Both the position numbers and the translations under genes were made by a program. A DNA stretch of 64,000 nt from Eledone cirrhosa (Eukaryota): NCBI GenBank assembly GCA_964016885.1, contig OZ024752.1:35092001-35156000 (forward strand), read 5' to 3'. Under the pieces are notes generated by a model that was not told the origin of the DNA, made no database searches, and saw nothing but the letters and a program-made list of their open reading frames with translations. Positions 20,804-50,410 of this stretch are shown here, in pieces (positions within the stretch are counted from its first letter, which is position 1; each line of letters opens with the position of its first letter).

Positions 20804-20846
<43 letters not shown>

Positions 20847-20850
20847 CGAT

Positions 20851-21209
20851 ATTAAATAAATGGAAACTATATTTATAAAACCATATTTATTTCATTATAT
20901 ATATTTCAGGGATATCATATTAAAAATATGGTATGCCTTCATCAGACAAAATACAATATAAACAGTCTTATAAATAGATAGATTTGACATACCTTACACT
21001 TCAACTTCCATTTAAAAAGTTGATTTGGTAGTGAAAAATGTTAGGGACAGTTATAGAGAAAAAAGAAAAGAAAGAAAGAAAGAAAACGAAGAAAAAGAAG
21101 AAATGCATGTAACGAAAAACAGAGAGAGAGAGATATAGAGAGATAGATAGAGAGAAGAAGTTCATGTAAAGAAAAAACAGAGAGAGATAGATAGAGAGAG
21201 AAAAAACAG

Positions 21210-21240
<31 letters not shown>

Positions 21241-21901
21241 AAAGAGAGAGAGAGAGAGAGAAAAAAATAGAGAGAGATAGATATAGATAGAGATAGAGAG
21301 AGAGAAAAATAGGTAGTTAGGCACCAGTTGAATGACGTATCAATGATATATTTATTTATTTATTTATTTATTTAGTTATAGTATTAAGGTAGAGAGATAT
21401 ATATGTGGTTAGGAGAGAAAACAGCCGTTACATAGAGAGAAAAGAAAAATATCCAGAGATAAACGAGGCAGATTTAAAACATTATGTTTCATCAATCTAA
21501 AATATCAATTCGTATGAATTAGGTATTATAATGTAAATATCAGTATTCATGAATGAGACACGTATCAATAATGTGTGAAAAATAATGATCATATGTCTAG
21601 TTTTACATTATAATACCTAATTCATACGAATTGATATTTTAGATTGATGAAACATAATGTTTTAAATCTGCCTCGTTTATCTCTGGATATTTTTCTTTTC
21701 TCTCTATGTAACGGCTGTTTTCTCTCCTAACCACATATATCTCTCTCTACCTTAATACTATAACTAAATAAATAAATAAATAAATAAATATATCATTGAT
21801 ACGTCATTCAACTGGTGCCCAACTACCTATTTTTCTCTCTCTCTATCTCTATCTATATCTATCTCTCTCTATTTTTTCTCTCTCTCTCTCTCTCTCTCTT
21901 T

Positions 21902-21932
<31 letters not shown>

Positions 21933-22275
21933 CTGTTTTTTCTCTCTCTATCTATCTCTCTCTGTTTTTTCTTTACATGAATTTCTTCTCTCTATCTATC
22001 TCTCTGTTTTTCGTTACATGCATTTCTTCTTTTTCTTCGTTTTCTTTCTTTCTTTCTTTTCTTTTTTCTCTATAACTGTCCCTAACATTTTTCACTACCA
22101 AATCAACTTTTTAAATGGAAGTTGAAGTGTAAGGTATGTCAAATCTATCTATTTATAAGACTGTTTATATTGTATTTTGTCTGATGAAGGCATACCATAT
22201 TTTTAATATGATATCCCTGAAATATATATAATGAAATAAATATGGTTTTATAAATATAGTTTCCATTTATTTAAT
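20851..22275. repeat. Long inverted repeat, ~680-bp arms (20851-21538 / 21602-22275), Penelope-like pLTR pair
   Basis: Arms are reverse complements (mirror ORFs 21001- and 21815+); each carries a hammerhead. Confidence 0.9.
22173..22238 (+). ncRNA. Minimal type I hammerhead motif (mirror copy on - strand near 20890-20955)
   Basis: TATTTTGT-CTGATGA-AGGCATACCATATT(TTT)AATATGATATCCCT-GAAA-TATATA-TA-ATGAAATA. Confidence 0.65.
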
Positions 22276-22590
22276 TACGTAAATATACTCCAAATACTTG
22301 TTGAGTGCTTTTATATCAGTTATAAATATTTACTCGTTGTAACCCAACAATTTAAATAAAACTTTGCATATATATATTATATATATTATATAATATATAT
22401 ATAATATATAATATATATTATATAATATATATATGTAATATATATATATTATATAATATATATATATATACAATAAATGTAATCTTAGTTTTTCGAATAT
22501 TAATAATAATATTCGATTTGTTTGCAATTATGCAAACAAGCCTCTTTTAGGCCATGTCAGTAGAATGAGCCCCTCATTCTTGCTCTTGTG

Positions 22591-27084: not shown

Positions 27085-29590
27085 TTTTACAGAATGTCTT
27101 ATCTTGTTATCTTTGAAATGTCCGAGAAACGCTCTCTACGACTCTATAAGGAGTTAAGGGACCATACACACATTCACATGGAGAGGGATGAGCTCCGTCA
27201 GGCTTGAAATGTCCGAGAAACGCTCTCTACGACTCTATCAGGAGTTAAGGGACCATACACACATTCACATGGAGAGGGATGAGCTCCGCCAGGCTTGAAA
27301 TGTCCGAGAAACGCTCTATATCAATACGGGGTCTCTACGACTCTATCAGGAGTTAAGGGACCATACACACATTCACATGGAGAGGGATGAGCTCCGCCAG
27401 GCTTGAAATGTCCGAGAAACGCTCTTAACGACTCTATCAGGAGTTAAGGGACCATACACACATTCACATGGAGAGGGATGAGCTCCGCCAGGCTTTTTAC
27501 AGAATGTCTTATCTTGTTATCTTTTGATTGTGTTAAATTTGGTAGCTAAATGTTTTTGGAGCAGGAGAAAGGAGATAATCGAAGTGAGTTTTGCCTTTCA
27601 TCCTTACGGGGTCGATAAAATAAAGTACCAATAACGCACTGGGGTCAATTTAATCGATTTTTCCCTCCTCTTCAAATTGCTGGCCTTGTGCCTAAAGTAG
27701 AAATAATTATTATCATAATAGACAGTGGATTGTCAATATTAGTAAGACGTCGGGCAACATGCTTTCAGCATAGAGTTACGACCCTTTACTTTCTGAGTTC
27801 CAATTCCGCCGTGGTTAGCTTTGCCTGTCAGTCTTACATGGTCGATAAATAAAGCACCAGTAATGTACTAGGGTCAATTTAATCGACTGACCCCTTACCC
27901 CCACAATTGTTGGCCTTGTGTCATTATTATTATCATTGCTCTGTTGTTGTTATCGTCGCCATGATGATTATGATTTTTGTAGCGCTTTCATTTTGTTTCC
28001 GAATATTTTAAAAGTAATTTCCTGTTTTTTTATTTGGAGATATTTTCCTTTAAAGATTTGTTGGTTGTATTGTCTATCTTTCAATGGAAGAAATCTGCTG
28101 TAATAAGGCCTGGAGAGGGATGGGCTGTATATCAAAATGGCGTCTCTACGACTCTATAAGGAGTTAAGGGACCATACACACATTCACATGGAGAGGGATG
28201 AGCTCCGTCAGGCTTGAAATGTCCGAGAAACGCTCTCTACGACTCTATCAGGAGTTAAGGGACCATACACACATTCACATGGAGAGGGATGAGCTCCGCC
28301 AGGCTTGAAATGTCCGAGAAACGCTCTATATCAATACGGGGTCTCTACGACTCTATCAGGAGTTAAGGGACCATACACACATTCACATGGAGAGGGATGA
28401 GCTCCGCCAGGCTTGAAATGTCCGAGAAACGCTCTCTACGACTCTATCAGGAGTTAAGGGACCATACACACATTCACATGGAGAGGGATGAGCTCCGCCA
28501 GGCTTTTTACAGAATGTCTTATCTTGTTATCTTTTGATTGTGTTAAATTTGGTAGCTAAATGTTTTTGGAGCAGGAGAAAGGAGATAATCGAAGTGAGTT
28601 TTGCCTTTCATCCTTACGGGGTCGATAAAATAAAGTACCAATAACGCACTGGGGTCAATTTAATCGATTTTTCCCTCCTCTTCAAATTGCTGGCCTTGTG
28701 CCTAAAGTAGAAATAATTATTATCATAATAGACAGTGGATTGTCAATATTAGTAAGACGTCGGGCAACATGCTTTCAGCATAGAGTTACGACCCTTTACT
28801 TTCTGAGTTCCAATTCCGCCGTGGTTAGCTTTGCCTGTCAGTCTTACATGGTCGATAAATAAAGCACCAGTAATGTACTAGGGTCAATTTAATCGACTGA
28901 CCCCTTACCCCCACAATTGTTGGCCTTGTGTCATTATTATTATCATTGCTCTGTTGTTGTTATCGTCGCCATGATGATTATGATTTTTGTAGCGCTTTCA
29001 TTTTGTTTCCGAATATTTTAAAAGTAATTTCCTGTTTTTTTATTTGGAGATATTTTCCTTTAAAGATTTGTTGGTTGTATTGTCTATCTTTCAATGGAAG
29101 AAATCTGCTGTAATAAGGCCTGGAGAGGGATGGGCTGTATATCAAAATGGCGTCTCTACGACTCTATAAGGAGTTAAGGGACCATACACACATTCACATG
29201 GAGAGGGATGAGCTCCGTCAGGCTTGAAATGTCCGAGAAACGCTCTCTACGACTCTATCAGGAGTTAAGGGACCATACACACATTCACATGGAGAGAGAT
29301 GAGCTCCGTCAGGCTTGAAATGTCCGTGAAACGCTCTATATCAATACGGGGTCTCTACGACTCTATCAGGAGTTAAGGGACCATACACACATTCACATGG
29401 AGAGGGATGAGCTCCGCCAGGCTTGAAATGTCCGAGAAACGCTCTCTACGACTCTATCAGGATTTAAGGGACCATACACACATTCACATGGAGAGGGATG
29501 AGCTCCGCCAGGCTTAAAATGCCCGAGAAATGCTGTATATCAAAATGGCGTCTCTACGACTCTATCAGGAGTTAAGGGACCATACATACA
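27085..29590 (+). repeat. 1010-bp near-identical tandem duplication (~2.4 copies) containing 91/110-bp subrepeats derived from the composite-SINE tail
   Basis: Identical ORFs at 27918 and 28928; repeated GGAGAGGGATGAGCTCCG...TACGACTCTATCAGGAGTTAAGGGACCATAC. Confidence 0.9.
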
Positions 29591-31621: not shown

Positions 31622-32103
31622 CTGCCAGATGGTTGAACGTTCGAAAGTATATACTTTCCTTATGAAAATTAACGGCTGAGCAGCCTAATTTGCATATCGA
31701 GTGAGTTCAGTCGGCCAGGCGCACCTAAAACGATAAGTAAGTGCCGTACTAAGAGTGAGAAATGAAATTTCGTTTCATTCTATTCCATTTATTGTTTTCG
31801 GTGCGCCTGGCCGACTGAACTCACTCGATATGCAAATTAGGCTGCTCAGCCGTTAATTTTCATAAGGAAAGTATATACTTTCGAACGTTCAACCATCTGG
31901 CAGAAAGGTATACGGTGCTGACGATAGCTAACAAGCTTGAAACTAGTACATCGTTCCTGTGTCAGTGTTGAACAAAAAGGTGACGTGGTTGCCTGAACAC
32001 TGTACGGCGTAAATCAGGCTGTCCGTTTGTTTACAAACGAACAAAGCGAACATTATAATAAATGTTCGGTAAACTGATACGTGCATATATATATGTGTGC
32101 CTG

Positions 32104-34023: not shown

Positions 34024-34175
34024 TTAATTAAAGAGACTAGCTTTCTCGTGTGTACATATTGCATGATCATGTAAGTTCTGTTCATCAGTATTCGAAGAAG
34101 AACTATATCGTTGATAAGAGATCACTGAGAGAGGCTGCATGTCAATGTTGTCATCTTTAGAGAGTTCTCGACTCG
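34024..34175 (-). CDS. Gene B exon 4: cytoplasmic tail (T)SRELSKDDNIDMQPLSVISYQRYSSSSNTDEQNLHDHAICTHEKASLFN*
   Basis: tttcttcttcag acceptor; only phase 1 is open, matching exon 3; a further donor GAG|gtaagc at 34017. Confidence 0.7.
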
Positions 34176-34647
34176 CTGAAGAAGAAATTTATTATTTACA
34201 TAATTGAATGTAATATAGCAAAAAAAAAACAAAAAAAAACAAAAAAAAAAAACATAGACATTTATTCTACAGACATCTCTTAATATAATTATAATAATTA
34301 TTTTAAAATTAAATCTGCCAGCCAAACAACAACTCTTCTCAGATTGCCCTTTGAACATCTACACACTGATCCTCTCTTGATAAAGGGTTTTTAAACCCCA
34401 AAATATTTGAGATAAATTTGCTAAGGTAAAATTCTATCGTCCTCATTCTTTCCTCTATAACTCCTATTACCTTGGCACTTTTAATCTTGTATGCATTGTA
34501 AGGCTTTCAAATATTTAAACTTATTTAAATTTGTATTTCCTATTCCACAATGCTTCAAGCAAACTACAACACTCTGTTATTATTAATTACCTTTATTTTT
34601 TTATTTTTTGATAAAAATAATAATTGTTTCTACTTTAGGCACAAGGC

Positions 34648-34684
<37 letters not shown>

Positions 34685-34767
34685 CCAGTTCACAACGATG
34701 ACTTTAGGCAATTAATCGTGTTTCGTTGATCTAATCAACTTTTCCCTCCCCCCAAAACTGCTGGCCT

Positions 34768-34957
34768 TGTAAGATGGTAATATGGACGTAAACAAGAGAA
34801 GAAACCCTTCATCAGCTGTTAACTGCGGATCATAGATGTTTCGGCGCTTAAAACAGGACATCGAAATCTATCAGCAGCGTCCGAAACATCTATGATCCAC
34901 AGTTAACAGCTGACGAAGGGTTTCTTCTCTTGTTTACGTCCATATTACCATCTTACA
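34768..34957. repeat. Inverted repeat, 77-bp arms
   Basis: 34768-34844 vs 34881-34957. Confidence 0.9.
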
Positions 34958-34996
34958 CTTTGTTTACAGTAACCACACAGCCTGCTTCGTTTCTTG

Positions 34997-35043
<47 letters not shown>

Positions 35044-35197
35044 TTTGTCGCATCACCAGTCTGAGGAGCAGATCGATACCATAGTCGGGTCCATAACTAC
35101 TATGGGTCACATTGAGCAAATCCTCTGCAAAACGTGCGTAACAGGTCGATACGCAATAAATATTTTTCATACGTAAATGAAACTTCCTCGTCTTTTC

Positions 35198-35413
<216 letters not shown>

Positions 35414-35744
35414 GTATATATGTATATATATATATATGTATATATGTATATATATATATATGTATATATATATAAAATTTTATTTATATATATATATGTA
35501 TATATATTAAAATTTTATTTATATATATATATGTATATATATTAAAATTTTATTTATTTATTTATTTATTTTTCCTTCCAAGAGGAAAACAAAGAGAGAA
35601 CCCTGCCCCTCCACCAAATTATTTAACTGCCCCTCCCCTGCTGCCTTTTTTTTTCTTTTTTTTTTTCAAATTTCAAAAGTGGGTTGGGTTTGTGGGTGTG
35701 GTAGTTGTTTCAAAAATTCATACTAAGAAACCTCAGAACACACA

Positions 35745-35822
<78 letters not shown>

Positions 35823-35897
35823 ATGGAAAATTTGAACAGGAACAAAACAGAGAGGCAGTACAACGAATGTTTATTAATTTCACGCTCTGGAGAGTGG

Positions 35898-36103
<206 letters not shown>

Positions 36104-36104
36104 T

Positions 36105-36829
36105 ATTACACAGAGAGAAGTGTGTTACACAGTGAGATGTGTGTAAAGAATTATTACATGTGGGTTTAACCGTTACTGTATGGAAAACAACACCTACAGG
36201 TCAGCAATTAGATAGAAAGAACACTAAGTCAGAATCAAATCTCCGAAGTAGAGTTTTAAATTACTAACCTTATAACTATAAGCTTGCTGATACGAATCTA
36301 TTTCGTTTCGCCACTGAAATGTGTAGCGTACAAAACCACAGGCTCCTCAGTCAGCAAGTGTGGAATTGCTCGTCACACATCTAGCCTAATGGAAAGAGAG
36401 AACGCAAATATGCACGCTGCCCAGAGCAGGGCGAAAACAGGTGTTATTTGCATCAAATAACGGCCCTCATGAATTGGGGGAAATGCTAGAGAGAGCAGCC
36501 CAACCATTCGAATTTATTAGCTCAACAATTTGGAGCTCGTTAATTATACATACCAGTAATGCACTGGGTATTTGCTGGCCTTGTGCCTAAAGTAGAAACA
36601 GTTAATTATACAAGAATCGGAATTAGAGTATTCCGCAGTTCACAATAATGTGTTTTCCATACAGTAACGGTTAAACCCACATATAATAATTCTTTACACA
36701 CATCTCACTGTGTAACACACTTCTCTGTGTGTAATATATTTGTATTTGAGCTCAGTTGAAAATTCTCTGTTCTTCTTTGAGCTAATATTATAATTACTGT
36801 GAACTGCGGAATACTCTAGTTCCGATTCT

Positions 36830-36835
<6 letters not shown>
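36105..36835. mobile_element. Penelope-like remnant with nested inverted repeats between (TA)n tracts
   Basis: 36105-36189 vs 36651-36735; 36608-36648 vs 36793-36833. Confidence 0.7.
36283..36358 (-). ncRNA. Canonical type I hammerhead ribozyme
   Basis: Minus strand reads CTTGCTGA-CTGAGGA-GCC...GGC-GAAA-CGAA(ATAGA)TTCG-TA-TCAGCAAG; all core bases present, 8-bp perfect stem I. Confidence 0.85.
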
Positions 36836-36921
<86 letters not shown>

Positions 36922-37013
36922 TGTAATAAACAACATAAGGCAATTATTTCATTAAGCTCTGTTACCTACATAGAGCACTCTTTTTTCCTGGACTTTTCCG
37001 ACGGAATTACTTC

Positions 37014-37059
<46 letters not shown>

Positions 37060-37084
37060 AAATATATATATATATATATATATA

Positions 37085-37204
37085 TTTTAATAAGATGAGA
37101 TTCTACAGGACTAGAACTGTTTCATTCTTTAGAAATCATCAGATTCCTGATGATTTCTAAAGAATGAAACAGTTCTAGTGCTGTAGAATCTCATCTTATT
37201 AAAA
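37085..37204. repeat. Palindrome (58-bp arms) centred on a truncated hammerhead core
   Basis: ...TCATCAG ATTC CTGATGA-TTTCTAAAGAAT-GAAAC... Confidence 0.8.
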
Positions 37205-37485
37205 CTTTTATACTCTGCAATGTATTGAGTACCTTACTTACTGTGGTTACCTCCGATTCAACCCGGAATAACGTACCGTATATATATATATATATATATA
37301 TGTGTGATGAAATATATATATATATATATATATATGATGAAATAGATATAGTGTAAGTGAGCATCATACAACTAGCAATATATATTTGTAAATACACATC
37401 CGTAATGTAATGTTTAGTTATATAAACATACATTATATGTACGAACAAGCAAATTCACCTCTTTGTCATATTATATTACATTACA

Positions 37486-38090
37486 GGGCGGTGGATTGGC
37501 AGTATTGGTAGAGAGTCGGACGCCATGCTTTGACGCATAGAGTTACGGCCCTTGCTATTCTGAGTTCAAATCCCGCCGAGGTTAACTTTGCCTTTCATCC
37601 TCATCGGGTCGATAAAATAAAGTACCAGTAATACACTGGGTAATTGCTGGCCTTGTGCCTAACGTAGAAACAATTATATTACATTGAGAACGGTGCGGTG
37701 GATTGGCAGTATCGGTAGAGTGTCGGACACCATGCTTTGCAGCATAGAGTTATGGCCCTTTACGTTCTGAGTTCAAATCCCGCCGAGGTTAACTTTGCTT
37801 TTCACCCTTACGGGGTCGATAAAATAAAGTACCAGTAATACACTGGGTAATTGCTGGCCTTGTGCCTAACGTAGAAACAATTATATTACATTGAGAACGG
37901 TGCGGTGGATTGGCAGTATCGCTAGAGTGTCGGACACCATGCTTTGCAGCATAGAGTAATGGCCCTTTACGTTCTGAGTTCAAATCCCGCCGAGGTTAAC
38001 TTTGCTTTTCACCCTTACGGGGTCGATGAAATAAAGCGCCAGTAATGCACTGGGGTAATTGCTGGCCTTGTGCCTAAAGTAGAAACAATT
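37486..38090 (+). mobile_element. Three tandem main-family SINEs
   Basis: Family consensus repeated at ~209-bp period. Confidence 0.9.
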
Positions 38091-38309
38091 ACATTACATT
38101 GAGATAGAACTAAAGAGTTAAAGATACGTGTTCACATTTGATTGCAGTGCAAATCAGATCTGGCTAGCAACGGAAGAATCATTTTTCATTCAGTCTCATT
38201 TTGCTTCTAAAGAACAATGTGCAATCAAAGTATATTAGTACTTTGAAAATGAGACTTTATTTCGATCACAAAAGATTTAGTAAGAAATAATCTAACATAT
38301 GAAAGCAAT

Positions 38310-38655
38310 GAATTGTTAGAATCATTAGAACGACGGATAGAATGCTTTGCAGTATTCGTTTCGGATCTCGGATCTCGGAGTTCAAATCTTGTCGAGGGTC
38401 AACTTTGCCTTTCATTCATTTAAGGTAGATAAAAAAAAAAGTACCAGTCTAGTATTGGGGGGTCGATTCTTTCTCCTATATCTATTTCTCACTTCTACTC
38501 TTTCTCACTCACTTTCCTTCTCTTGAAAAAATCTGCTGAGTTCAGACCTGGAGAGGAAATGGATTCCGGCATGCTTAACATACCCAAGAAACGCCGTATG
38601 CTTCTACGGAGCCCCTACGACTCCATTAGGAGATACTGGTGGACTATATCATACC
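38310..38655 (+). mobile_element. Composite SINE, degenerate
   Basis: Same head/body/tail as 9833. Confidence 0.7.
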
Positions 38656-38722
38656 AATATTACGTATGTTCTATTTCTCTGAGAGAAAAAAGAACCCCAA
38701 AATTCATAAACTATGAACTCAC

Positions 38723-38904
38723 TTATGGAAATGGTTCTGTCGTGGTGTGCATCCTCTTCGACAGTCACAACTTGTACTTCGTTTATTCGACGGAGAGCCA
38801 CAAGACAACGAAATATAACCACTAAAAATACACCTCCAACTATGACACCAACCACAGCACCGGCAATCTTGTAACCATATTCATATTGGGCTTCAAGAAG
38901 AAAG
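38723..38904 (-). CDS. Gene B exon 3: TM exon FLLEAQYEYGYKIAGAVVGVIVGGVFLVVIFRCLVALRR...
   Basis: ttttag acceptor, TAA|gtgagt donor, 182 nt (phase 2 in, 1 out); TM helix followed by RR. Confidence 0.85.
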
Positions 38905-42405: not shown

Positions 42406-43990
42406 ACATATACATGCAGACAAACATAATACACAGTTAAACAATTTTCATTACAATTATCAACATATACACGACATACATCCTCCCTCTTACACAATAC
42501 ACTATGATGATGGGTTCTCCATCGGTTTCGACGATGAACATCCAGTTGTTCGATCCACTACTGAGTGTCCAAATCGGAAATGAATACTGGACAGAGAATT
42601 GCATTCCTTTGTTAAGAAACCTTTGGGTAATTTTAATAAAATTAGACGCCATTTTGAATAAAATGACTCGTTTGTAAAAAGACCACCATATTAGTTGTGT
42701 GTGTCTTTATTGAGATTATAACTACTTCTTCAATGAATAAGTCATTCAATGAAAGACATCTTTCAGATTTGAATAAATATAAGTTATAAGTTTTTCTAAA
42801 ATGTTTATAAATTTTACATATGGCAGGAATCTCAACATCGCTCAATGTGTAAGCCTATGTTCCTGTTCTTTTAATTTTCATTAAATGTTTTCATAGCGAG
42901 TGCCGGAGGCCCCCAAATGTTCTTTTCTCCAGGGCTCAGTCCGTTTTATCTGGATTTGATTATACCGCTTTCTTAGAACTTTCGTGTCACTTGTATAAAT
43001 ATCAATATACCATTTACACCCGCTAAATAGTTCTTTATGCGTGTATTAGATTTCACATAAAACATTTAAAAGTGTGAAATTTAATCTGATTGAGTGAACG
43101 TAACATGAAAGAAACAAGTCAAATCTATTTATCTCTGTCTTAGTATGTTATAGATTATATCGTCATCAACATCATCATCATTATCATCATTGCGACCACA
43201 GTCGAACATATAATAGGAAAGGCCAAAGCTTTTTGCTCTGGGTGATAATAGGGTAAATGGAAATAGGTATATAACATTAATATTAATAGTCTAATTAGAC
43301 TACTAGTAGTAATGTAGGTCGAGCAAGAAGGAGTAAAGATGTGTTTTCATTCTCGGATGTAATTTGTATTTAAAACCACAAAAATACAGAGACAACATAT
43401 TTGAATGAGAAGTTAGAAAGAGATACGAGATTGGAAGAGGTTTGTAGATAAATATAAACATTTTAAAACAAACATTTTTGTACTATAGAACGAAGGAAGG
43501 TTTAAAGTGGTTTCGTATCAAATATTTTAAAGCTTATTTCTAGTTAGGTTTTTGATGGTTTCTCTCCATTATCTCCATTAACAGACTGTTATGATTTAGC
43601 AGAAAATATCTAAAAATGGGTTTGTTAAATGTTTATAGTATCTTTACTAGTGGACAGATCGTTGTGGAAATTTCTAGCATTTTTAATGTGATGCTGTCAC
43701 AGAACTATTTTATACTTTTCCAGAATACCTCGAAGCTGTGGTTTCCTACTGCACAGGACGTTAATATATGGCAACCCTTGGAAACCCTTATAATCAGATG
43801 AATATTATATGTTTATCTTATTAGCCTAGTTATAGTTTACAAAATATTTAAAAGAACCGACTGAAATTTAAGAACGTACCACTTTTACAAATGATCAATA
43901 TGTCTGGGTAGCCCTATCCAAACCTGGAATAACCATTACGCAAAATAATCACATACCTCAAGTAATGAGGGCCTTAAAGAACATTTTTTT

Positions 43991-48986: not shown

Positions 48987-49098
48987 TCTTCTACACAACA
49001 ATATTTTCCATTCGGGGCTTCACAACATCCAAATTTACAATAAACTTTATCTGTGAATCCTTGGTCGTCTTGTATCATACACACGTCGTCTGCCAAAC
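48987..49098 (-). CDS. Gene B exon 2: Shisa-like/CYYR1-type Cys ectodomain LADDVCMIQDDQGFTDKVYCKFGCCEAPNGKYCCVE
   Basis: tttctttctactag acceptor, AGA|gtaagt donor, 112 nt phase 1/2; six-Cys C..C..CC..CC pattern. Confidence 0.88.
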
Positions 49099-49564: not shown

Positions 49565-49924
49565 TATATAAGAACAAAAGATGGTTAAAGGAGTTCCATG
49601 TATTTTATTATGCGCATTTCAAAAACAAATATCATCATGCAATAATATTTGTGTTTTCATCAGATAAAACAGGAGGACATGATATGAAGGCTAAAAAACA
49701 CTTGTGGATAGTTCAGTTTTAAATCAACATATTTAAAACTGAACTATCCACAAGTGTTTTTTTAAACTGTTGATTTAAAACTGAACTACCCACAAGTGTT
49801 TTTTAGCCTTCATATCATGTCCTCCTGTTTTATCTGATGAAAACACAAATATTATTGCATGATGATATTTGTTTTTGAAATGCGCATAATAAAATACATG
49901 GAACTCCTTTAACCATCTTTTGTT

Positions 49925-49971: not shown

Positions 49972-50410
49972 GTAACAGCCGTACTAAGAGTGAGAAATGA
50001 AATTTCGTTTCATTTTTTCCGTTTATCGTTTTCGGTACCCCGGCCGATTAACTCACTCGATATGCAAATTAGGCTGCTCAGCCGTTAATATGCATAAAGA
50101 AAGTATATACTTTCAGACGTTCAACCATCTGGCAGGAAGGTATACGTTGCTGACGATAGCTAATAAGCTTGAAACTAGTACAGCGTTCCTTTGTCAGTGT
50201 TGAACAAATGAGCAACGATGGTTGCTAGACACTGTACGGCTTAATTCGGGATGTTTGTTTACAAACACACCGAGCATTATAATAAATGTTCGCGGTGAAT
50301 CCATACGTACATATATATATGTGTGCATGTATGAATATATATATATATATATATTATATACATACTACTGTACGTCTGTATATGTATGTACGTATACATA
50401 CTTATATATA
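49972..50410 (+). mobile_element. Second copy of the 31.7-kb pLTR with hammerhead at 50144-50186
   Basis: ACGTTG-CTGACGA-TAGCT(AATA)AGCTT-GAAA-CTAG-TA-CAGCGT. Confidence 0.75.

What the first reader, a model, noticed from the sequence alone, without database searches (positions are those of the whole stretch)
36283..36358. Intact canonical hammerhead lying sense in intron 3 of gene B
Seen: every core base is present (CUGAGGA, GAAA, GUA), with an 8-bp perfect stem I, a G-C-closed stem II and a 5-bp stem III. It lies on the minus strand like the host pre-mRNA, in the spacer rather than the arm of an inverted repeat, so it is not sequestered. Inference: it could cleave the pre-mRNA between the TM exon and the tail exon.
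Basis: partly seen in the sequence, partly recalled or inferred. Interest (0 to 1): 0.75.

Follow-up and report, generated by a model that had tools for sequence, protein, structure and literature searches.

The report
Jumping-repeat hammerhead ribozyme inside an intron
A hammerhead (self-cutting RNA) motif does lie in an intron of a spliced gene, but it is one of a few hundred copies carried by a small non-coding repeat that likely jumps with Penelope-type enzymes, so it is probably a passenger and not a switch for the gene; cutting itself is untested.

Summary
The motif is real: a type I hammerhead at 36358-36283 (-), cut site predicted after 36291, extended by a 5-bp pseudoknot to 36363 that shows a compensatory change among copies. 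It lies sense in a real intron: one contig joins the flanking exons. But it is not gene-specific. It is part of a ~540-nt non-coding repeat with at least 247 ribozyme copies in this genome, which ends at two fixed points in (TA)n, is 5'-truncated, often longer than one unit and often paired head-to-head. This is the footprint of an animal non-LTR retrozyme mobilised by Penelope-like elements; the scan noted this kind before, in this genome and others. The copy is young (5 private changes in 440 nt), inserted copies show no selection on the ribozyme, and the window holds 9 more hammerhead motifs. So this copy may cut better than its kin. Cleavage and any effect on gene B are untested. New member of a known kind.

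The parts
36283..36363 (-). Type I hammerhead: pseudoknot tail CCACA 36363-36359, stem I 36358-36351/36290-36283, core 36350-36344, stem II 36343-36341/36312-36310, pseudoknot partner UGUGG 36340-36336, stem III 36306-36302/36296-36292, predicted cut between 36291 and 36290
   Evidence: Sequence, descriptor and shuffles, pair counts
36095..36550 (-). Main arm of the ~540-nt repeat (monomer positions m184 to m102); 3' end is the 'short' fixed end, running into (TA)n
   Evidence: BLAST on a real copy, 95%
36551..36600 (.). 50-nt fragment of a very abundant SINE-like repeat inserted later into the element, with a 12-nt target duplication (36612-36601 and 36550-36539)
   Evidence: Sequence; DNA contigs of sister copies skip 62 letters with 12 shared
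36601..36649 (-). 5' piece of the main arm (m147 to m195)
36651..36832 (+).
35901..36105 (.). (TA)n target microsatellite, lower side
36837..36915 (.). (TA)n target microsatellite, upper side
38723..38904 (-). Gene B transmembrane exon (AG before, GTGAGT after)
   Evidence: X4 contig covers exactly this; borders
34024..34175 (-). Gene B tail exon, coding part to TAA (3' UTR goes on; about 700 letters of the contig lie on this side)
   Evidence: Loose end of X4 contig equals its first 30 letters; frame
48987..49098 (-). Gene B cysteine-rich exon, spliced to the TM exon
   Evidence: Loose end of X4 contig matches its last 30 letters with one A/G difference
34176..38722 (-). Intron that holds the element; cut site 2432 nt after the donor, 2116 nt before the acceptor
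37141..37191 (+). Second, unrelated hammerhead (U10.1-U11.1) in the same intron, antisense to gene B, one arm of a head-to-head palindrome in (TA)n

Best explanation
This is a young insertion of a ~540-nt non-coding, hammerhead-bearing repeat, likely a retrozyme copied by a borrowed Penelope-type reverse transcriptase, that landed in a TA microsatellite of a gene B intron and probably rides there as a passenger. Shown: hundreds of dispersed copies, two fixed 3' ends at TA runs, free 5' ends, more-than-unit copies, head-to-head arms, an intact ribozyme fold kept between subfamilies, correct splicing across the insertion. Inferred: source copies are transcribed, cut by the hammerhead into monomers that are ligated to circles; a Penelope endonuclease nicks (TA)n, TA-like spots of the RNA prime reverse transcription on one or both DNA strands, and the enzyme runs past the ribozyme junction. 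Inferred for gene B: the ribozyme may cut some nascent transcripts 2.4 kb after the donor, but slowly enough, or tethered well enough, that the exons are still joined.
For: Copies: 140 exact hits of a 20-mer with N at 10.1, 247 within one mismatch of a 19-mer, controls 0. Monomer 537-549 nt, 36-37% GC. In 114 of 128 loci (14 dropped as repeats of places already held): 138 of 173 segments end at m~102 (81) or m~189 (57); 128 of these 138 have a TA run within 25 nt; 48 of 114 loci exceed one monomer; 137 of 173 segments read through the cut site, 10 twice, only 2 begin at it; 32 of 37 head-to-head pairs with both ends classed join one short and one long end (30 further pairs had an unclassed end). 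L051 is a true dimer with two whole ribozymes 548 nt apart. Structure kept in sources: core intact in 61 of 72 units, stem I C-G to U-A in 8 of 25 rows, loop III varies while stem III does not; pseudoknot 429 of 455 cells paired, terminal pair C-G 62, U-A 13, C-A 10. No selection after insertion: rare-variant rate 1.69% core, 2.11% stems, 1.61% rest; window copy has 5 private changes in 440 nt, 0 of them in the 81-nt ribozyme, p = 0.36. 10 hammerhead motifs in this window alone. Spliced contig. Penelope insertion anatomy: PMC8557442 (passages); retrozymes: PMC7229834, bioRxiv 10.64898/2026.07.22.740005.
Against: No autonomous Penelope element with this sequence as its terminal repeat turned up: frames were listed for L001-L090 and L121 and none continues the repeat into a Penelope ORF; Penelope-like GIY-YIG frames are only neighbours. 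No circular RNA or cleavage shown. The active fold lies 6.9-12.5 kcal/mol above the ensemble in four window contexts. This copy carries the rare G10.1-C11.1 pair, so it may be more active than the family on which the neutrality test rests. The spliced contig is one record of one run of unrecorded kind and says nothing on how much transcript is lost. No long tandem arrays were seen, unlike classical retrozymes. Loci were chosen by likeness to the window or by pattern, not at random.
Confidence: 0.78

Rival explanations
1. Same origin, but this copy cuts gene B pre-mRNA fast enough to lower or truncate gene B output: an unselected, ribozyme-made expression allele.
For: Sense orientation in a used intron. 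G10.1-C11.1 is restored in this copy, against A-C, U-U or C-C in 68 of 75 units; 3 exact G hits among 247. Stem III is 5 bp and not palindromic, so it could act as a monomer; pseudoknots support fast cleavage at 0.5 mM Mg2+ in other hammerheads (PMC3088659, passages). A fast ribozyme in an intron blocked splicing (PMC2995048 citing Fong 2009).
Against: Spliced transcript exists. A hammerhead-cut intron was spliced as well as an intact one (PMC2995048 citing Dye 2006 and Fong 2009). Competing hairpins are predicted. Only 1 of 9 tested Xenopus retrozyme dimers cleaved (bioRxiv 10.64898/2026.07.22.740005).
Confidence: 0.1
2. The unit is the terminal repeat (pLTR) of an autonomous Penelope-like element, and this is a truncated stub of such an element rather than a self-contained retrozyme.
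For: Insertion anatomy is that of Penelope elements (PMC8557442). Retrozymes are reported to derive from pLTRs.
Against: Where copies run on past one unit they wrap into the same monomer (48 of 114 loci; 10 segments cross the cut site twice). The one same-strand pair 4.5 kb apart was a segmental duplication without an ORF.
Confidence: 0.09
3. A domesticated regulator of gene B, like the conserved intronic hammerheads of RECK and C10orf118 in amniotes.
For: Intact core, pseudoknot and G-C pair; 0 private changes in the ribozyme.
Against: Copy is 96% like its nearest kin with 5 private changes, so young; 0 of 5 in the ribozyme is expected by chance (p = 0.36). Multi-copy, flanked by the whole element.
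Confidence: 0.03

Closest known systems
Animal non-LTR retrozymes (Cervera and de la Pena 2020, PMC7229834: passages, sections 14 and 17 read; Li, Clavereau and Pollet 2026, bioRxiv 10.64898/2026.07.22.740005: parts 1-3 of 5 read)
   Same: Non-coding low-GC monomer with one type I hammerhead, head-to-tail units, dispersed monomers, many copies in introns (42-44% in Xenopus), co-existence with Penelope elements.
   Different: Monomer 540 nt (170-400 nt in the 2020 paper; within 51-972 in the 2026 one); mostly 0.5-2.3 units, no long arrays seen; stable non-palindromic stem III with a pseudoknot; mismatch at 10.1-11.1; circular RNA not shown.
Penelope-like elements and their pLTR hammerheads (Craig et al. 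2021, PMC8557442: passages; Cervera and de la Pena 2014, PMC4209133: parts 1-2 of 4)
   Same: (TA)n targets, 5' truncation, partial tandems, inverted 5' copy, an extra tail at one end, type I hammerhead.
   Different: No RT/GIY-YIG ORF; ribozyme is not the minimal dimeric form; the two 3' ends differ by ~87 nt, not 30-40.
Pseudoknotted hammerheads with short stem II and U10.1-U11.1 variants (Perreault et al. 2011, PMC3088659: passages, section 10)
   Same: Tail-to-loop-II pseudoknot of 5 bp, 2-bp stem II, natural U-U at 10.1-11.1.
   Different: Here whole subfamilies carry A-C and C-C as well as U-U; activity not measured.
Conserved intronic hammerheads of RECK and C10orf118 (PMC3088659, section 10)
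   Same: Sense in an intron of a protein gene; C10 also uses a 5-bp pseudoknot.
   Different: Those are single, conserved across mammals and shown to cleave; this one is a young copy of a multi-copy repeat.

Membership tests
Type I hammerhead ribozyme | Core C3 U4 G5 A6 N7 G8 A9, G12 A13 A14, A15.1-U16.1, H17 with three stems, stem I open | tested here: met
   0 hits in 100 shuffles; Rfam models do not score it at gathering level
Type I hammerhead ribozyme | Tertiary contact between stems I and II | tested here: met
   5-bp pseudoknot, 429 of 455 cells paired, C-G to U-A change in a subfamily; likely one evolutionary event, so support is modest
Type I hammerhead ribozyme | Active fold is favoured in context | tested here: inconclusive
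   Active fold 6.9-12.5 kcal/mol above ensemble; model lacks pseudoknots
Type I hammerhead ribozyme | Self-cleavage | not testable with these tools
   Needs transcription assay; only contigs were available
Animal non-LTR retrozyme | Short non-coding, low-GC repeat unit with one type I hammerhead | tested here: met
   537-549 nt, 36-37% GC; no frame of 70 aa inside the element body in the window
Animal non-LTR retrozyme | [quoted passage not shown] | tested here: met
   Met for the family (L051); not met by the window copy, which has one ribozyme and so could not release a monomer
Animal non-LTR retrozyme | Expressed as linear and circular monomer RNA | not testable with these tools
   No RNA holder listed; contigs cannot show circles
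Penelope-like element (autonomous) | ORF with RT and GIY-YIG endonuclease between pLTRs | tested here: not met
   No such ORF attached to the repeat in L001-L090 or L121
Penelope-mobilised insertion | (TA)n target, fixed 3' end, 5' truncation, partial tandem, inverted 5' copy | tested here: met
Penelope-mobilised insertion | Sequence kinship with the pLTR of an autonomous partner | tested here: inconclusive
   None found among fetched loci; no genome-wide protein search was run
Conserved intronic hammerhead (RECK/C10orf118 type) | Isolated motif, not part of a young repeat family | tested here: not met
   At least 247 copies, 96% to nearest kin
Conserved intronic hammerhead (RECK/C10orf118 type) | Kept at the orthologous intron across species | not testable with these tools
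   The genome has no relatives on hand

The most novel reading that the evidence does not exclude
The family keeps its ribozyme throttled by a mismatch at the base of stem II (A-C, U-U, C-C), which lets circles survive and lets sense copies sit in introns; a small lineage regained G10.1-C11.1, and this copy is a gain-of-activity ribozyme that cuts gene B pre-mRNA and sets its output. With 10 hammerheads per 64 kb, such cutting would be a genome-wide, orientation-dependent load on splicing in this animal.
Probability: 0.12. Interest if true: 0.6.

Novelty: new member of a known kind. Interest (0 to 1): 0.3.

Why it matters
As it stands it is one more retrozyme family with a Penelope footprint, and it removes the case for a gene-specific ribozyme switch. 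Two things are of use to specialists. First, the family is a natural series of one hammerhead with four states at 10.1-11.1 and a covarying pseudoknot, which allows a clean test of whether mobile ribozymes are tuned down. Second, a verified sense-intronic copy with the strongest predicted state is a ready test of whether retrozymes disturb host splicing, an open point in the retrozyme papers read.

Tried and rejected
Rfam: 0 matches. A-to-I editing as the source of G10.1 or as a switch at the A-C mismatch: no strand bias among rare variants (A>G 40 vs T>C 64, p = 0.55; C>T 75 vs G>A 64), and C and U occur at the same place; rejected as a family-wide signal, a single event cannot be excluded. 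Linear cleaved monomer as template: only 2 of 173 segments start at the cut site; rejected. Autonomous partner: the 1115-aa frame beside L081 is an APE-RT-PHD LINE; the RT frame before L007 has no GIY-YIG hit; the 4.5-kb pair L121 is a duplication. No RNA holder listed. In run X4, 3 low-depth contigs touch the ribozyme region, with letters of other subfamilies and none matching this copy; the rest has no cover; no evidence either way. Summed contig depths were not used as copy numbers. Gene B pieces: no Pfam hit; the frame at 42437-42706 is not in the spliced contig; exon 1 candidates by script were not verified. Fold rows L030 (wrong match) and L006 (no core) were ignored. Covariation shuffle test on A1: covariation score 0 of 500 but pairs changed on both sides 475 of 500, so weak on its own. 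Paper searches for 10.1/11.1 variants gave 0 and 1 papers. Searches with 'octopus' and hammerhead listed no description of this family; subscription papers, Repbase/Dfam and bioRxiv supplements were not seen and may hold it.

Full report
1. The observation. On the minus strand, 36358-36283 reads stem I (8 bp), CUGAGGA, GCC...GGC, GAA, a 5-bp stem III closed by A15.1-U16.1, A17 at 36291, and the second strand of stem I. A descriptor search found it and 5 other motifs in the window and none in 100 shuffles; a descriptor that allows a mismatch at 10.1-11.1 found 10 motifs and none in 50 shuffles. Rfam gave no match. So it is real, and hammerheads are common here.

2. The host gene. No run on record as RNA was listed, but run X4 (kind not recorded, 88 million letters, another sample than X1 and X2) behaves as spliced RNA: one contig of word depth 22.7 covers exactly 38723-38904; its lower loose end is the first 30 letters of the exon starting at 34175 and its upper loose end the last 30 letters of the exon ending at 48987, with one A/G difference. 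DNA-like runs X1 and X2 span the stretch unbroken. Splice signals fit. The intron 38722-34176 is therefore real, the ribozyme is sense in it, and spliced product exists. This is one contig in one study and gives no level.

3. The ribozyme belongs to a repeat. The window lies on C12 of a 3.0-Gb animal genome (I guess an octopus from a recalled SINE, untested). A search with 36130-36830 gave 206 matches from 40 scored of 1416 candidates. Exact patterns gave 40, 140 and 256 hits, and 247 within one mismatch; controls 0. Real copies show a monomer of 537-549 nt that wraps into itself. Over 114 of 128 fetched loci (14 dropped as repeats of held places; loci were picked by likeness or pattern, not at random): 138 of 173 segments end at one of two points (m~102, m~189), 128 of these 138 at a TA run; 5' ends are scattered; 48 loci exceed one monomer; 137 segments cross the cut site (m443), 10 cross it twice, 2 begin at it; of 67 head-to-head pairs, 37 had both ends classed and 32 of these join a short and a long end (the count was prompted by note e1-8669363). 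L051 is a dimer with two whole ribozymes. The window copy is such a pair: long-ended inverted arm 36651-36832, short-ended main arm 36649-36095, interrupted by a 50-nt SINE-like piece with a 12-nt duplication.

4. The fold, from the family. Core intact in 61 of 72 units. Stem I shows C-G to U-A in 8 of 25 rows, stem III is kept while its loop varies; the shuffle controls are mixed. The five letters before stem I pair with the five after CC of stem II in 429 of 455 cells; a subfamily changes the terminal pair from C-G (62) through C-A (10) to U-A (13). Such pseudoknots with 2-bp stem II are described, and needed for activity, in PMC3088659 (passages and section 10). The ribozyme thus likely begins at 36363. 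Position 10.1-11.1 is A-C 28, U-U 22, C-C 18, G-C 4, other 3 of 75 units; of the 100 listed hits I counted by hand A 42, T 45, C 12, G 1 (40 not listed); 3 of 247 are exact G forms, and two more G copies differ elsewhere. On the tree the G copies sit among A-C copies, so G is likely derived. U-U is a known natural, still active variant; I found no paper on A-C or C-C families. Against activity: ViennaRNA puts the active fold 6.9-12.5 kcal/mol above the ensemble in four window contexts and 7.9-11.1 in nine other copies, with competing local hairpins; it cannot model the pseudoknot.

5. Selection. The copy is 96% like its nearest kin and has 5 private changes in 440 nt, none in the 81-nt ribozyme (p = 0.36). 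Across copies at least 90% like it, rare variants hit core, stems and the rest alike (1.69, 2.11, 1.61%). The fold is kept in source lineages and decays neutrally after insertion. No editing signature.

6. Mechanism. Shown: points 1-5. Inferred, following PMC7229834 (passages, sections 14 and 17), PMC4209133 (parts 1-2 of 4) and bioRxiv 10.64898/2026.07.22.740005 (parts 1-3 of 5): multimeric source transcripts are cut to monomers and closed to circles, and a Penelope RT/endonuclease primes at (TA)n on TA-like spots of the RNA. Read-through of the cut site fits a circular or uncut template and not a cut linear one; it does not tell circle from uncut tandem. No partner was found. For gene B, a cut would fall 2432 nt after the donor. 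PMC2995048 (passages) reports that an intron cut by a hammerhead was spliced while a fast HDV ribozyme blocked splicing; I did not see the primary papers. PMC3365414 (passages) added nothing; the CPEB3 paper was seen only as a listing. With one ribozyme, this copy cannot release a monomer.

7. Verdict. Works like an animal non-LTR retrozyme and meets the sequence tests for the family; circular RNA and cleavage are untested; it fails the tests for an autonomous Penelope element and for a conserved intronic ribozyme. Searches for a printed description of this family listed none, but repeat databases and preprint supplements were not seen. The scan has noted this kind of element before in this genome and others, though not this sequence; these notes are not independent support. 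New member of a known kind, interest 0.3. The boldest reading left open is a throttled ribozyme family with a gain-of-activity copy that trims gene B output (0.12).

Noticed in passing
window 5647-5585 (-), 20953-20888 (-), 22173-22238 (+), 22654-22606 (-), 31912-31954 (+), 37141-37191 (+), 49671-49601 (-), 49826-49896 (+), 50144-50186 (+): Nine more type I hammerhead motifs of other families, most with short palindromic stem III, several as head-to-head pairs. 49671 (-) would also be sense to gene B if exon 1 lies upstream of it.
   Followed up: partly
L001-L070 flanks: 52 hammerhead motifs of other families in 473 kb; only 9 of 52 have G10.1-C11.1, 18 have U-U and 7 C-A. Descriptors that demand this pair would miss most of them.
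   Followed up: partly
window 48996 region (last letters of the Cys exon): Run X4 reads G where the window's sense strand has A, a synonymous Val codon: allele or A-to-I edit; X4 is another sample, so not decidable.
   Followed up: no
L056:4143-4231: A copy of this family is fused head-to-head to an arm of the unrelated hammerhead family seen at window 37141, as if two different RNAs served the two arms of one insertion.
   Followed up: no
L051:3969-5214: The two units of the dimer group together in the tree yet differ at sites that vary between subfamilies: heterodimeric source or template switch.
   Followed up: no
L081:4701-8045: Intact-looking 1115-aa APE-RT-PHD LINE frame next to a copy.
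   Followed up: partly
window 27133-29452: Three near-identical copies 1010 nt apart.
   Followed up: no
window 20845-22281: Long near-perfect inverted repeat (295 nt at 98%, 276 nt at 99%) with a hammerhead at each outer end.
   Followed up: no
gene B, 49098-34024 (-): Small Cys-rich ectodomain, one TM helix and a tail; it recalls Shisa/WBP1/VOPP1-type proteins (from memory; no Pfam hit).
   Followed up: partly
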